From an uncultured Anaerolineales bacterium (GTDB taxonomy: Bacteria; Chloroflexota; Anaerolineae; B4-G1; SLSP01): a DNA stretch of 64,000 bases. The stretch spans positions 3,782 to 67,781 of the forward strand of contig CAZCAI010000002.1 in assembly GCA_964496595.1 (NCBI GenBank), in the 5' to 3' direction. Below, piece by piece: positions 27,251 to 50,207 of this stretch. The translations under genes were made by a program, and so were the position numbers. The notes under the pieces are model-generated. The model was not told where the DNA came from, did no database searches, and saw only the letters and a program-made list of their open reading frames with translations. The number at the start of each line of letters is the position of its first letter. Position 1 is the first letter of the stretch.

Positions 27251-28543
27251 CTACAATAAACGACCTAAACCAACCCGCTTTTGCGACTCTTCCTCTGCGG
27301 CGGCTTCTTCTTCCTCAGCTCTCTGAGCAAAGCGATTGTGAATTTTCTTCGCCAAACCAAGAACTGCTTGCCCGATAAGAGATCGAGCGTCTTTTAAGAC
27401 GAAAGGCTCTCCGTAATTCGCCGCTCGCAAAGCGGTTCGTTCGTCCAGCGGGAGATGGGCGATAGCCGGCATCATAGCGCGTTCGATAGCCTCCGGCTGA
27501 ATGCCCATCCGTTTATTATCCACACTATTAATGACCAAATCTACGTGCTCCATCGGATATTCGAGCTTCTGCAACAACTCGACGAACATCCGCGCCCCCC
27601 GAATCTCCGGGATGACTGGCCGGGTGAGGACTAGCAGCATATCATTGACGTCCAACGCAGCCAGGATGATATCATCGATATGGTGGGCTGTATCGATGAT
27701 GATGTAATCGAATTCCTGCTGAACGAAATTCAAAATCGCCTTCATCGCGTGATTGCCGCCGCTCTCCTCAACACCGGCCTCTTGAAACATCTCTGCTTCT
27801 TCAGGCGAGGCTGGGGCCGCCAGGACCCCCACACCGGAGGAGTGCGTGGCGATGACCGTGCGCAACAAATTGGGGTCTAAATCCTGCACATGCGGGGCCA
27901 AATCTGTCAAGGTGCGGGTAGCTTGCAGCTTCAAGAAAATCGACACATCGCCAAATTGCAAATTCGCATCGACGAGACAAATTTTTGCATCTGCACCGAG
28001 TAGCGTCTGAAGCGCGATAGCTAAATTGACAGCCACCGTTGTACATCCGGTCCCACCTTTAGGACTAAAGACAGTGAGGACTTTGGCCTGTCGCGCCGGC
28101 GTTGGTTCGGCTGCCGCCTGCCTGCCCGGCGCGCCCGCTTGGGTCAACGGCCCGGTTCCCATTTTTTGCCGCAATTTATAGGTGCGATGAATGGTATTCA
28201 ACAGATCATCGGCGCTGGGGGGTTTGGTGAGATAATCCCGCGCGCCAGCCATCATCGCTCGGCGCATATAGTCGCTTTCGCCCTGGACGGAGAGCATCAC
28301 GACCTGAACGGCCGGCATAATCTCCACAATCTTACCGGTGGCTGTGATGCCATCTATACCGGGCAGGTTGATATCCATCAACACTACATCGGGTATGGCC
28401 TTCGGCACAACGGAGACAGCTTCCTCGCCGCTGCCCACCATTGCCACAACTTCGATATCCGGATCAAATGACATAAGTTTGCGGAGTTGCTCGCGCGTCT
28501 CCGCAACATCATCGACGATCATTACACGTATTTTTTCAGGCAT
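27251..28543 (-). CDS. cpaE: CpaE/TadZ-like protein: receiver domain fused to MinD/ParA-type ATPase
   Basis: N-terminal REC (VDD, LMDINLPG, KP) then FSPKGGTGCTT and DANLQFGD. Confidence 0.85.
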   Translation of the reverse strand: MPEKIRVMIVDDVAETREQLRKLMSFDPDIEVVAMVGSGEEAVSVVPKAIPDVVLMDINLPGIDGITATGKIVEIMPAVQVVMLSVQGESDYMRRAMMAGARDYLTKPPSADDLLNTIHRTYKLRQKMGTGPLTQAGAPGRQAAAEPTPARQAKVLTVFSPKGGTGCTTVAVNLAIALQTLLGADAKICLVDANLQFGDVSIFLKLQATRTLTDLAPHVQDLDPNLLRTVIATHSSGVGVLAAPASPEEAEMFQEAGVEESGGNHAMKAILNFVQQEFDYIIIDTAHHIDDIILAALDVNDMLLVLTRPVIPEIRGARMFVELLQKLEYPMEHVDLVINSVDNKRMGIQPEAIERAMMPAIAHLPLDERTALRAANYGEPFVLKDARSLIGQAVLGLAKKIHNRFAQRAEEEEAAAEEESQKRVGLGRLL

Positions 28544-38464: not shown

Positions 38465-38611
38465 GGTTCTTTAGGAATTCGCCGAGGGGCAATCGTATCA
38501 TCCCATCCACAACCTGCTAACACGCAAACAGGTCTGTGATCCTTGCAAACACACGAATCGTGGCTGCTGTTAGGGCTACTGGGGGAATTATCCGGCAAAA
38601 TTCAAAAGGCC
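38465..38611 (+). mobile_element. ISL3-type miniature inverted-repeat element, copy A (147 bp)
   Basis: Ends GGTTCTTTAGGAATTCGCCG and CCGGCAAAATTCAAAAGGCC; perfect 8-bp direct repeat ACCTTCCT at 38457-38464 and 38612-38619. Confidence 0.8.
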
Positions 38612-42330: not shown

Positions 42331-42491
42331 GGGTCTTTTGGATTTTGCCGGGCAATCTCCTCAGTAGCCCTAAAAGCAGCCAAGAATTGCGTGTTTGTGG
42401 GGATTACAGACCTTTCTTGCGTCGCTCCTGGGTTGCAGGTGGGGGGCGCAATAGCGCTTGACGATTGCACCCGACGAATTCCTGAAGAGCC
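42331..42491 (-). mobile_element. ISL3-type miniature element, copy B (161 bp)
   Basis: Imperfect IRs GGGTCTTTTGGATTTTGCCGG / GGCTCTTCAGGAATTCGTCGG (15/21); perfect 8-bp direct repeat ACGAAGTC at 42323-42330 and 42492-42499. Confidence 0.85.
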
Positions 42492-46342: not shown

Positions 46343-46945
46343 ATGAAACATTTCTTCATTAGAAGGTTTAAGATATGGCGTGAATACATCAAGATCTCAG
46401 GGGCCGGAGAGATTGCGCGGCGCGCATTTGTGAATAACTCATTCGATGGGGTGCTGACCATGGTAGGGGTAGTGATGGGAAGCTTCGTGGCCGGCATTAA
46501 GGATCCCAACGCGGTATTCATCACCGGTCTATCGACGGCGTTCGCGGTTGGAATTTCCGGTTTGTGGGGATCCTACCTTATCGAGGCAGCCGAGCAACGT
46601 CACGCGATAGTTGTCCTGGAAAAGCAACTTATGAGGCCGCTTAATAAGACGAGAATCGACCGCGCGGGCCATGTTGCCGTGTGGTACGTCTCCATTGTTA
46701 ACGGAGTATCGCCTTTCCTTGCCGCTTTGATTATCATCATACCTTTTCTTCTTGTCCCGCTCTTGTCCCACATTGACTATGCCTATTACACGTCCCTTGT
46801 GCTGGCGCTGATATCCCTCTTTGGCCTCGGCGTCTACCTGGCTCAAATTTCTCACGCGAGCAAGTTCCGGTTTGGCATCAGGGCTATGATCGCCGGTATT
46901 ATCTCGATTGCGGTTGGCTTCGGCATCGAGTTGGTCACCTCGTAG
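46343..46945 (+). CDS. VIT1/CCC1-like membrane protein (TIGR00267-type), paralogue 2
   Basis: IARRAFVNNSFDGVLT, GSYLIEAAEQR, NGVSPF; same fold as the preceding gene. Confidence 0.75.
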   Translation: MKHFFIRRFKIWREYIKISGAGEIARRAFVNNSFDGVLTMVGVVMGSFVAGIKDPNAVFITGLSTAFAVGISGLWGSYLIEAAEQRHAIVVLEKQLMRPLNKTRIDRAGHVAVWYVSIVNGVSPFLAALIIIIPFLLVPLLSHIDYAYYTSLVLALISLFGLGVYLAQISHASKFRFGIRAMIAGIISIAVGFGIELVTS

Positions 46946-47055
46946 GCGGAGCGCTGATAGCGTGATTCGGTTTTCAATTCTCCGGCTACATAGTTTGTAT
47001 AGAGTTCGTCTTACTCATAGAATGACAGTAGCGTTCATCTGATAAATGTTATTTT

Positions 47056-47343
47056 GGCTCTTCAGGAATTCGCCGGGTGCAATCGCACCCATACCCCCCC
47101 CGCGACCTCGTAACAACGCAGAAAAAGTCTGTGGGTTCCACAAACACACAAATCTTCGCTATTTTTAGGGCGACTGAGCGAGCTATCCGGCAAAATCGTT
47201 ACCGTCACAAAGTCTTCGCCACCTGGCCCCCTGGCTCCGAGGGGATTGCTAATCCCCGCCTAACCGCCGGATTTAGCAATCCGGCGAGAGCCTGGCACGA
47301 CATGGCGAATACTTTGAGATACAAGCCAAAATCCAAAAGTTCC
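47056..47343 (+). mobile_element. ISL3-type miniature element, copy C (288 bp including nested insertion; 152 bp without)
   Basis: Starts GGCTCTTCAGGAATTCGCCGG, ends CAAAATCCAAAAGTTCC; perfect 8-bp direct repeat GTTATTTT at 47048-47055 and 47344-47351. Confidence 0.85.
47198..47326. mobile_element. Second MITE (129 bp) nested inside the terminal IR of copy C
   Basis: 7-bp duplication CAAAATC (47191-47197, 47327-47333); 24-bp imperfect IRs GTTACCGTCACAAAGTCTTCGCCA / GCTTGTATCTCAAAGTATTCGCCA; internal REP-like hairpins. Confidence 0.75.
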
Positions 47344-47435
47344 GTTATTTTTAACAAGGTTACCTCGCTGTTTATGGAGTAGTAGCCTCAGTTCCGTCAT
47401 ATAATCCAAATATAATCAAAAAGGAGAAACAAGTT

Positions 47436-50207
47436 ATGAGTGCATGGCATACAATGACACGCGAGCATGCCCTGGAGAAGCTCAACGCCGTTCCCGAGGG
47501 GCTATCCTCAGATGAAGTTGAGGAGCGTTTGGCCCAGTATGGGTCTAACGAACTGGAGGAACGAGGATTACGCAGCCCGTGGAAGGTGCTGATAGGACAA
47601 TTTACAGAGATCATGGTCGTGGTGCTGCTTATTGCCGCGGGGATTTCCCTGGCTATGAGCCATACCACTGATGCGATTGTGATCCTCATCATCGTGATCC
47701 TCAATGCAATCCTCGGCTTCACGCAGGAGTACCGCGCCGAGCGGGCGATGGCCGCGCTTAAGGAGATGTCAGTTCCCACAGTTCGGGTCCGCCGCGATGG
47801 GCAGATTCGGGAGGTCGAGGCTACCAGCCTCGTGCCGGGGGACATTATTCTGCTGGAAGCCGGGGACCGGATCCCCGCCGACGCTCGCGTTATCGAGTCG
47901 GTTAACTTACGAATCGAGGAAGCGGCGCTGACCGGAGAATCCGTGCCGGTAAGCAAATCGGAGGCTCCGTTTGAGGACGAAGGCCTACCTCTCGGAGATC
48001 GCCGCAATATGGTCTTTATGGGCACGGCCGTTACCTATGGGCGCGGCACTGCGCTCGTCGTCGAGACGGGCATGGAGACAGAGCTGGGCAACATCGCCGA
48101 CATGCTCCAACAGGTCTCGGAGGAGCGGACGCCACTGCAACGCAAGATGGCAGAGCTGGGCAAATGGCTGGCGATTGCTTCCATCGTTTTAGTCAGCATC
48201 GTCTTTGCCGTCGGCGTCTGGCAGGGCGGCAGCATCGGCGAAATGTTCCTGACCGCCGTCAGTCTCGCCGTGGCCGCAGTTCCAGAAGGCCTACCGGCGG
48301 TAGTTACCATCGCTCTGGCTCTGGGCGCGCAGCGTATGGTCAGGCGTCAAGCCCTCATTCGCAAGCTGCCCGCTGTGGAGACCTTAGGCTCAGTAACGAC
48401 CATCTGTTCAGATAAGACGGGCACGCTGACCGAAAACCGCATGACGGTGACGGTTCTGGATGTGGCGGGGAAGACTCTGAATCTCACCACCCATCTGAAG
48501 CACACCGGTGCGACCCTCTCACCTGACGACGAGCCGATTGTCGAACCTGATCCCCAGATCGCCCTGTTGTTGGCCGGCGGCGCGATGTGTAACGATGCCA
48601 GTCTTGAACCTGTGGATGACAAACCCAACGCTTACGAAGCCCTGGGCGACCCCACAGAAGGGGCAATCGTCGTCGCCGCAGCCCGATTGGGAATGTGGAA
48701 GGCCGAGATGGAAAAGCTTATGCCGCGGGTCGCCGAGGTGCCCTTCACCTCAGAGCGCAAGCGAATGACGACGGTCCATCGCGCACCCCAGACATCCGAA
48801 CTCTCCGGTAACAGTCAATTGAGCTACCTGCCGGCAGACATCCCGAAGAGCGGCTATGTACTCTTCACCAAGGGCGCGGTCGACCAGATGCTGGGTATTT
48901 GCGACCGCGTCTGGAACGAAGGGGAGATCGAGCCATTGGACGAGACGTGGCGCTCCCGCATCGAGCAGGCTAACAATGAATTGGCCCAGGACGGGATGCG
49001 CGTCTTAGGCGTGACAATGCGCCACCTGGACGAGGCGCCTGATCAAGCTGATGAAGAGGCCATCGAGGCTGAGGAAATATTCATTGGTCTTATCGGCATG
49101 ATCGATCCCCCACGTTCCGAGGTGCGCGACGCGGTGGCTGAATGCCGCACCGCCGGCATCCGCCCGGTGATGATCACTGGCGATCATCCCCTAACGGCGC
49201 TCCATATCGCCCGCGATTTGGGCATCGTCCAGGCCGGTGAAGAGGACGATCACCACGTAATCACAGGCAAACAACTGGCCAAGATGTCAGTCGCAGATTT
49301 GGAGGAACACGTCCGCGAGATTTCAGTCTATGCCCGCGTCAGCCCGGAGCACAAGGTCAAGATCGTGGAAGCCTTGAAGGATCAAGGCGAAATCGTAGCG
49401 ATGACCGGGGATGGGGTCAACGACGCCCCGGCCCTCAAGCGCGCCGACATCGGCGTCGCGATGGGCATCACGGGCACGGACGTGAGCAAAGAGGCCGCTG
49501 ATATGGTGCTGTTAGACGACAATTTCGCGACCATCGTCCATGCCGTTGAAGAGGGGCGCACCATCTACGAGAACATCCGCAAGTTCGTCAAGTACACGAT
49601 GTCCAGCAACATCGGAGAGATTCTGGTGATGCTGGTGGCGCCGTTGGCCGGTCTCCCCATCCCGCTGAATGCGATCCAAATCCTGTGGATCAACCTGGTG
49701 ACCGACGGCTTGCCGGGTCTGGCGCTAAGTGTAGAGCCTGCTGCGCCTGATACGATGCAACGCCCCCCGCACGCGCCCAACGAAAGCGTGCTGGCGCGCG
49801 GGCTGGGAACGTACATGTTATGGGTAGGGCCTCTGATGGGCCTCGTTGCCCTCCTTCCCGAGTTCTTAGCGGCGGCGGGCTTGGGTGGCATGACGCTAGA
49901 AGGCGAAGCGTTCCATACGGTGGTCTTTACGACGCTGGCGCTGGCGCAGATGGGGAATGCCTTAGCCATCCGCTCCGACCGCCTCATGCTGATGCAACTT
50001 GGCCTCTTTACGAACCCCTTCCTGCTAGGCTCCGTAGCCCTGACCTTCCTGCTGCAAATGGCCGTCGTCTATGTGCCCTTCCTGCAGAACATCTTCGATA
50101 CTGTCCCCCTCAGCTTGGAGCAACTCTTAATCAGCCTGGGCTTCAGCACTATCGTCTTCATCGTTGTTGAAGTGGTGAAGTGGATCCGGCAGCAGATCGA
50201 AAAGTGA
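47436..50207 (+). CDS. Cation-transporting P-type ATPase, P2A (Ca2+/Mn2+, PacL/YoaB-like)
   Basis: [64 protein letters not shown]. Confidence 0.95.

What the first reader, a model, noticed from the sequence alone, without database searches (positions are those of the whole stretch)
47191..47333. A MITE inside a MITE, upstream of the P-type ATPase
Seen: the right IR of copy C is interrupted by a 129-bp element with 24-bp imperfect IRs (inner TC[A/T]CAAAGT[C/A]TTCGCCA conserved), a 7-bp duplication CAAAATC, and an internal inverted REP-like doublet (GGGGATTGCTAATCCCC / GCCGGATTTAGCAATCCGGC). Removing it restores 152 bp, in line with copies A and B (147 and 161 bp). Inference: this fixes an order of events, should have immobilised copy C, and reveals a second unclassified MITE family that carries REP hairpins. 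It ends about 110 bp before the ATPase start.
Basis: seen in the sequence. Interest (0 to 1): 0.65.

Follow-up and report, generated by a model that had tools for sequence, protein, structure and literature searches.

The report
IS256-type MITE nested in ISL3-type MITE
A 129-base non-coding mobile element, a miniature relative of IS256-family insertion sequences, has jumped into the end of an older miniature ISL3-type element upstream of an ion-pump gene. This is ordinary selfish DNA, but the same spot in that older element has been hit repeatedly in this group of bacteria.

Summary
Window 47198-47326 is a 129-bp element with 24-bp imperfect inverted repeats (IRs) and an exact 7-bp duplication (CAAAATC). 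It interrupts the right IR of a 152-bp outer element, 47056-47343, which has an 8-bp duplication (GTTATTTT).

Both are real MITE families in this Chloroflexota MAG. The inner family has about 22 copies at about 96% pairwise identity; 14 of 21 have exact 7-bp duplications. The outer family has about 167 hits at about 79% identity, with 8-bp duplications.

I could classify both families. The inner IRs and the 7-bp duplication match a 1.37-1.40-kb IS256-family insertion sequence found in family-mates and in many cyanobacteria. The outer IRs and the 8-bp duplication match ISL3-family elements in family-mates. Neither transposase is in this 88%-complete assembly.

The two hairpins are real and highly conserved. 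They are not the REP types that flank this genome's three RAYT-like genes.

New here: the same site in the outer element's right IR was hit independently at least four more times by other IS256-type miniatures in this genus, far more often than a target-motif model predicts.

No effect on the ATPase is shown.

The parts
47048..47055 (.). Left copy of the outer element's 8-bp target duplication (GTTATTTT)
   Evidence: Read. The same 8-mer is at 47344-47351. An 8-bp duplication is the family rule.
47056..47197 (+). Outer ISL3-type MITE, copy C, left 142 bp. Left IR is GGCTCTTCAGGAATTCGCCGG at 47056-47076. Its last 7 bp, CAAAATC, are the inner element's target.
   Evidence: nhmmer family of about 167 hits. 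Ends and duplications. IRs match ISL3-family IS ends in family-mates.
47191..47197 (.). Left copy of the inner element's 7-bp target duplication (CAAAATC), part of the outer right IR
47198..47326 (+). Inner 129-bp IS256-type MITE
   Evidence: 26 genome hits. 7-bp duplications. IRs and duplication length match 1.37-1.40-kb IS256-family ISs.
47198..47221 (+). Inner left IR, GTTACCGTCACAAAGTCTTCGCCA
   Evidence: The IS ends are GTTRGTGTC-N8-TTCGCCA.
47241..47257 (+). Hairpin 1, GGGGATT-GCT-AATCCCC
   Evidence: Fold. Stem invariant in 28 copies from two genera.
47265..47286 (+). Hairpin 2, CGCCGGATT-TAGC-AATCCGGCG
   Evidence: Fold. Stem nearly invariant.
47303..47326 (-). Inner right IR (reverse complement GCTTGTATCTCAAAGTATTCGCCA)
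47327..47333 (.). Right copy of the inner 7-bp target duplication (CAAAATC)
47334..47343 (+). Displaced outermost 10 bp of the outer MITE's right IR (CAAAAGTTCC; family consensus CAAAAGACCC)
47344..47351 (.). Right copy of the outer 8-bp target duplication (GTTATTTT)
47436..50207 (+). P-type cation ATPase gene (923 aa), 110 bp downstream of the inner element
   Evidence: Pfam E1-E2_ATPase, Cation_ATPase_N/C and Hydrolase.
46343..46945 (+). Upstream co-directional VIT1-family gene
   Evidence: Pfam PF01988.
42331..42491 (-). Outer-family copy B with an uninterrupted CCGGCAAAATCCAAAAG site; serves as a paralogous empty site
   Evidence: 8-bp duplication GACTTCGT.
38465..38611 (+). Outer-family copy A, uninterrupted
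   Evidence: 8-bp duplication ACCTTCCT.

Best explanation
The 129-bp insert is a non-autonomous miniature element (MITE) of an IS256-family (Mutator-type DDE) insertion-sequence lineage. It keeps only the roughly 24-bp terminal IRs that the transposase recognises, around a core of two GC-rich hairpins.

A transposase supplied in trans moved it. By analogy with IS256, this would be copy-out/paste-in through a circular intermediate. The transposase made a 7-bp staggered cut at an AT-rich target, CAAAATC, which lies inside the right IR of an older ISL3-derived MITE.

The insertion split that IR: 10 bp stay at the tip and the rest is displaced by 136 bp. This very probably ended the outer copy's ability to be mobilised.

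Shown here: both families, their ends, their duplications, the matching transposase families, the order of events, and recurrent use of the same site.

Inferred: the transposition mechanism, the immobilisation, and any effect (none shown) on the downstream ATPase.
For: Inner family:
- 26 hits, about 21 full length at 91-96% identity.
- 14 of 21 have exact 7-bp duplications, and none has an 8-bp one.

Nested insertion:
- The rejoined outer sequence equals the consensus of uninterrupted copies.
- Alignments of other outer copies to copy C stop exactly at 47197.

Autonomous relative:
- G111:C82 (L011 395-1767) is 1373 bp with IRs GTTAGTGTCTTAAAGTATTCGCCA and GTTAGTGTCACGAAGTATTCGCCA.
- It encodes a 427-aa protein hitting PF00872 at 9.6e-52 and NF033543 (IS256) at 203 bits, above the 150-bit cut-off.
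- 39 related loci were found in Chloroflexota and Cyanobacteria.
- At least 10 full-length ISs have exact 7-bp duplications and GTTRGTGTC-N8-TTCGCCA (GGTAGTGTC..TTCGCAA in the Ardenticatenaceae copies) ends.

Outer family:
- About 167 hits with 8-bp duplications.
- ISL3 (PF01610) elements in family-mates have IRs GGCTCTTTGGGAATTCGCTGG and GGCTCTTTTGGATTTCGCCGG, and one has the 8-bp duplication AAAAATCC.

Ages: outer median pairwise identity 78.6%, inner 96.1%.

Mechanism: a circular intermediate for the IS256 family is stated in PMC3942029.
Against: - No IS256-type or ISL3 transposase gene, and no fragment of one, is present in this assembly. Mobilisation in this genome is therefore not demonstrated. 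The MAG is only 88% complete, and ISs are often lost from bins.
- Similarity between the MITE and the ISs is limited to about 24-26 terminal bases, so the MITE is not a simple internal-deletion derivative of any IS seen.
- IS256-family elements are, to my knowledge, usually described with 8-9-bp duplications. The 7-bp rule here rests on this lineage's own copies.
- No empty-site allele of this locus could be found.
Confidence: 0.9

Rival explanations
1. The 129-bp unit is a REPIN-like doublet mobilised by a RAYT (Y1 transposase), and the IS256-like ends are incidental.
For: The core is an inverted hairpin doublet flanked by GCTCCRAG and its complement. Similar doublets occur free-standing and as the core of a 144-bp family. 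The genome has three Y1_Tnp genes.
Against: The copies have 7-bp target duplications and 24-bp IRs that match an IS256-type IS. As far as I know, RAYT/IS200-type mobilisation makes no duplication. The hairpins flanking the three Y1 genes are of other sequence types.
Confidence: 0.03
2. This is a chance palindrome plus a local tandem duplication of CAAAATC, not a mobile element.
For: The outer IR itself contains two similar heptads, CAAAATC and CAAAAGA.
Against: There are 21 other full-length copies at unrelated loci, each with its own different 7-mer duplication.
Confidence: 0.01
3. The element, or the composite, has been co-opted as a cis-regulatory or RNA-stability element for the ATPase transcript. 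In this reading the two stable hairpins would sit in a 5' leader or in an intercistronic region of a VIT1-ATPase operon.
For: The element lies 110 bp upstream of the start codon, between co-directional genes. It folds strongly: -54.5 kcal/mol, z = -5.4. The hairpin core is more conserved than the spacer across two genera.
Against: No Rfam family matches beyond a sub-threshold hit at E = 0.065. No promoter-like site was found, and no terminator-like site on the + strand within the element. Other copies sit at unrelated loci.
Confidence: 0.06

Closest known systems
IS256-family insertion sequences (Mutator-type DDE; Pfam PF00872, NCBIfam NF033543), specifically the 1.37-1.40-kb lineage in Chloroflexota and Cyanobacteria (for example on Acaryochloris and Kovacikia plasmids, annotated 'IS256 family transposase')
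   Same: The terminal IR pattern is the same (GTTRGTGTC-N8-TTCGCCA). The target duplication is 7 bp in both, and both prefer AT-rich targets.
   Different: The MITE has no transposase. Only about 24-26 terminal bases are shared, and the interior is a hairpin doublet. To my knowledge the family as usually described makes 8-9-bp duplications, whereas this lineage makes 7.
ISL3-family insertion sequences and their MITE derivatives
   Same: The outer element has GG-started IRs (GGCTCTTCAGGAATTCGCCGG) and 8-bp duplications. ISL3 elements in family-mates carry near-identical IRs.
   Different: It has no transposase, is 150-170 bp long, and has about 167 hits in a 5-Mb genome. No ISL3 transposase is in the assembly.
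IS insertion into REP elements (Tobes & Pareja 2006, PMC1525189) and MITEs inserted in other transposons (MITEPsy1 inside ISPsy17, PMC3189936)
   Same: One mobile element repeatedly uses another dispersed repeat as its landing site.
   Different: Here the target is a specific 7-mer in the IR of another MITE family, and the invaders are several non-autonomous relatives of one IS lineage.
REPINs (Bertels & Rainey 2011, PMC3116915)
   Same: The core is two short GC-rich palindromes in inverted orientation with a short spacer.
   Different: No associated RAYT was found. This element also has terminal IRs and target duplications, which I do not know REPINs to have.

Membership tests
MITE (non-autonomous DNA transposon) | Small size, no coding capacity, terminal inverted repeats | tested here: met
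   129 bp, 24-bp IRs matching at 17/24, no ORF of its own.
MITE (non-autonomous DNA transposon) | Multiple dispersed copies, each with its own target-site duplication of fixed length | tested here: met
   About 22 copies. 14 of 21 have an exact 7-bp duplication, 3 have one mismatch, and the 7-mers all differ.
MITE (non-autonomous DNA transposon) | An autonomous element with matching IRs and the same duplication length exists | tested here: met
   ISs of 1366-1398 bp with GTTRGTGTC..TTCGCCA ends and 7-bp duplications. None is in this genome.
IS256 family (for the autonomous partner) | Single Mutator-type DDE transposase matching the curated family models above their cut-offs | tested here: met
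   PF00872 at 9.6e-52 (176.6 bits, cut-off 21). NF033543 at 202.9 bits (cut-off 150).
IS256 family (for the autonomous partner) | 8-9-bp target duplication (as generally described; from my own knowledge) | tested here: not met
   This lineage gives 7 bp in at least 10 full-length copies. I treat it as a lineage variant, because the transposase passes the family models.
IS256 family (for the autonomous partner) | Transposition through a circular intermediate | not testable with these tools
   Stated for the family in PMC3942029. Not tested for this lineage.
ISL3-derived MITE (outer element) | GG-started IRs similar to ISL3 IS ends, and an 8-bp duplication | tested here: met
   Outer ends are GGCTCTTCAGGAATTCGCCGG and GGGTCTTTTGGATTTTGCCGG (reverse complement). 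8-bp duplications are seen in most full-length copies. ISL3 ISs (PF01610) in family-mates have IRs differing at 3-5 of 21 positions.
REP / REPIN | Association with a RAYT gene flanked by the same palindromes | tested here: not met
   Three Y1_Tnp genes were found. Their flanking hairpins are GCGACTGAAGTCGC-type and CCCGTGGATGAAGTCCACGGG-type, not GGGGATT..AATCCCC. The MAG is incomplete, so absence is not final.
REP / REPIN | No terminal IRs and no target duplication (from my own knowledge) | tested here: not met
   The element has both.
Known structured RNA family (Rfam) | Match at or above a family's gathering score | tested here: not met
   The only hit is c4-a1b1 at 17.7 bits against a gathering score of 46.7, E = 0.065.

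The most novel reading that the evidence does not exclude
The right IR of the ISL3-type MITE is a preferred docking site for the IS256-type transposase. It would be a TE-on-TE 'safe harbour' that is used again and again, and that incidentally disables the older element.

At least five independent nestings at the identical position were seen in this genus, involving 129-, 64-, about 300- and 191-bp elements plus one more event shared between two species. A motif model predicts about 0.015 such events among 34 insertions in this genome.

A further layer is possible. The hairpin doublet may itself be an independently spreading REPIN-like module that entered a 64-bp minimal IR pair, which would give three levels of nesting.
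Probability: 0.3. Interest if true: 0.5.

Novelty: new member of a known kind. Interest (0 to 1): 0.3.

Why it matters
On its own this is a tidy textbook case of nested transposition in a bacterium. It gives a relative time order and shows two MITE families whose parent IS families (IS256 and ISL3) can be named. Neither family name appears in the main text of a recent prokaryotic MITE review.

It also documents an IS256 lineage that is shared by Chloroflexota and Cyanobacteria, makes 7-bp duplications, and has spawned several miniature derivatives.

The recurrent use of one 7-mer in another MITE's IR, if it reflects real targeting, would be a simple natural system for studying target choice by Mutator-type bacterial transposases and competition between mobile elements. 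It has no demonstrated consequence for the ion-pump gene.

Tried and rejected
- Rfam scan of 46900-47500: nothing meaningful.
- Promoter and terminator scan: no promoter-like site. The only terminator-like hairpin inside the composite is on the minus strand of the outer element.
- ISL3 and IS256-type transposases were searched in the own genome by profile, protein and tblastn: none found.
- Longer elements sharing the IR (C20, C115, C111, C178) were inspected for a transposase. They are further non-coding MITE families or run off contig ends.
- Empty-site test in congeners: the locus is not conserved closely enough.
- Empty-site and filled-site junctions in metagenome contigs: no match for either, so this test says nothing.
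- Exact-protein look-ups: two Logan contigs carry the upstream VIT1 gene, but both stop inside the outer MITE's left IR. The ATPase is not on record.
- Covariation in the hairpins: the stems are invariant, so nothing can be said for or against a selected structure.
- A possible duplication around the hairpin doublet (CCTGGC at element positions 25-30 and 94-99) is not kept in the G020 copies, so I dropped it as evidence for a third nesting layer.

Full report
**The observation**

- CAAAATC is at 47191-47197 and again at 47327-47333.
- Between them lies a 129-bp element, 47198-47326.
- Its ends, GTTACCGTCACAAAGTCTTCGCCA and GCTTGTATCTCAAAGTATTCGCCA (reverse complement of 47303-47326), match at 17 of 24 positions and at 15 of 17 in the inner block.
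- Two hairpins sit inside, at 47241-47257 and 47265-47286.
- Deleting 47198-47333 leaves a 152-bp element, 47056-47343, flanked by the 8-mer GTTATTTT (47048-55 and 47344-51).
- Copies A (38465-38611, duplication ACCTTCCT) and B (42331-42491, duplication GACTTCGT) are as stated.
- The P-type ATPase (Pfam) starts at 47436, and a VIT1-family gene ends at 46945.

**The inner element is a real MITE family**

The window lies in a 5.03-Mb, 329-contig, 88%-complete MAG.
- blastn finds 26 hits to the 129-mer, about 21 of them full length at 91-96% identity, at unrelated loci.
- Of the 21 full-length copies with flanks, 14 have an exact 7-bp duplication and 3 have one mismatch. None has an exact 8-bp duplication, and every 7-mer is different.
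- The targets are AT-rich in a 60% GC genome, with a loose palindromic consensus near TTG|CAAATTG|CAA.
- Several copies lie in AAAGTTG heptad arrays.
- The same element, at 80-88% identity and again with 7-bp duplications, has more than 20 copies in one other genus of the same family (G020). It is absent from three congeners.

**The nesting is precise**

The rejoined outer sequence CCGGCAAAATC|CAAAAG occurs exactly in dozens of uninterrupted outer copies, including copies A and B in the window. When the region is searched against the genus, alignments of other outer copies to copy C stop exactly at 47197. The outer family is old: median pairwise identity is 78.6%, and copy C is 75% identical to the rest. 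The inner family is young, at 96.1%. So the outer element came first and the inner one later. The composite junction is unique in the genome, so the composite has not spread since.

**Which transposase families**

The inner IR pattern GTTASTGTCWYARAGTMTTCGCCA occurs in 19 of 145 genomes of the order, all within the window's own family, and mostly as pairs 60-300 bp apart.

One pair in G111 bounds a 1373-bp element. NCBI labels this genome "Thermoflexia bacterium G713", DUEJ01000002. The element is filled by a 427-aa ORF. The ORF hits Pfam Transposase_mut (9.6e-52) and NCBIfam IS256 (203 bits against a cut-off of 150).

A scan of one genome per species found 39 related loci in Chloroflexota (Anaerolineae, Thermoflexia, Ardenticatenaceae) and many Cyanobacteria. 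The full-length copies are 1366-1398 bp, with one of 1790 bp. They end in GTTRGTGTC-N8-TTCGCCA (the four Ardenticatenaceae copies end GGTAGTGTC..TTCGCAA). At least ten have exact 7-bp duplications. The same lineage sits on Acaryochloris and Kovacikia plasmids, annotated as IS256-family transposase.

The inner element is therefore a miniature derivative of this IS256 lineage. IS256-family elements transpose through a circular intermediate (PMC3942029), and I infer the same here.

The outer element has about 167 nhmmer hits and ends GGCTCTTCAGGAATTCGCCGG ... CCGGCAAAATCCAAAAGACCC, with 8-bp duplications. ISL3-family elements (PF01610) in family-mates carry IRs such as GGCTCTTTGGGAATTCGCTGG and GGCTCTTTTGGATTTCGCCGG, and one has the 8-bp duplication AAAAATCC. 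The outer element is thus an ISL3-type MITE. This agrees with an earlier first-reader note on the same three copies.

Neither transposase, nor any fragment of one, is in this assembly. For a MAG, that does not prove absence.

**The hairpins**

The element folds into a Y shape: an IR stem plus two hairpins, at -54.5 kcal/mol and z = -5.4. Across 28 copies from two genera the hairpin stems are essentially invariant, while the spacer next to the left IR is diverged. This is strong conservation, but without covariation it does not demonstrate a selected structure.

The same design, GCTCCRAG-GGGATY..RATCCCC-spacer-SCGGATY..RATCCGS-complement, forms the core of a separate 144-bp MITE family and also occurs free-standing.

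The genome has three Y1/RAYT-like genes flanked by REP-type hairpins of other sequences. So "REP-like" holds for the shape, but REP/REPIN membership is not met. One of those other REP types does lie inside a different, roughly 300-bp MITE family that has the same IS256-type IRs.

**A recurrent landing site**

The same position in the outer element's right IR (after CCGGCAAAATC) carries other IS256-type miniatures.

| Place | Inserted element | Notes |
|---|---|---|
| G000 C2 (this window) | 129 bp | duplication CAAAATC |
| G000 C18:3807-3870 | 64 bp | duplication CAAAATC/CAAAACC |
| G000 C20, ending at 27667 | about 300-bp type | its far junction is lost to a deletion |
| G003 C14 (L116 259-449) | 191 bp | duplication CAAAATC/CAAAACC; the outer copy has its own 8-bp duplication TCCTATGA |
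| G001 C76 and G003 C120 | one shared event | the two loci are orthologous |

That makes at least five independent events. A position-weight model was built from the other insertion sites. It gives the 109 outer sites about 0.04-0.05% of the genome's target weight. The expectation is therefore about 0.015 such hits among 34 insertions, against 3 observed in this genome.

There are caveats. The model rests on 16-25 sites, the test is post hoc, and selection removes insertions in genes.

**Effect on the ATPase**

None is shown. No promoter-like site was found in 46900-47500. The only terminator-like hairpin inside the composite is on the minus strand of the outer element.

**Verdict**

This is a real, well-defined nested MITE. 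It is ordinary selfish DNA of known kinds. The one feature worth following up is the repeatedly used insertion site.

Noticed in passing
G000 contig C279:150-420 (outside the window); compare C84:880-930: A Y1/RAYT-like transposase gene is interrupted near its 5' end by an outer-type (ISL3) MITE. The intact paralogue in C84 shows the uninterrupted sequence.
   Followed up: partly
G000 C115:14079-14222 (outside the window): A 144-bp MITE of a third family (about 60 copies, with its own hairpin doublet GGGGATCGTCAGATCCCC / GCGGATCTGACGATCCGC) is nested in a roughly 300-bp IS256-type MITE. It duplicates CTAG (or TA). Nesting is common in this genome.
   Followed up: partly
window 47127-47145 (minus strand), and the same block in the outer-family consensus: The outer ISL3-type MITE carries a conserved terminator-like hairpin followed by a T-run, in one orientation only. 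In copy C it faces away from the ATPase.
   Followed up: no
G000 C7:28290-28450, C73:23150-23300, C3:43670-43830, C6:56190-56350: Four copies of the 129-bp MITE sit in or beside arrays of the heptamer AAAGTTG, with the duplication in phase with the heptad. The outer-MITE site (CAAAATC CAAAAGA) also looks like two heptads.
   Followed up: partly
G000 C72:8744-8873: One copy of the 129-bp MITE has the loop of hairpin 2 inverted (GCTA instead of TAGC). This would be expected from template switching or conversion within a palindrome.
   Followed up: no
L011 402-430 (G111) and L020/L021: The IS256-type transposase ORF ends inside the right IR. The conserved GGCGAA of the IR encodes the last residues (..VANTS* or ..MAKT*).
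   Followed up: no
window 47077-47382: A 101-codon ORF listed mechanically runs through both MITEs. It is almost certainly spurious.
   Followed up: no
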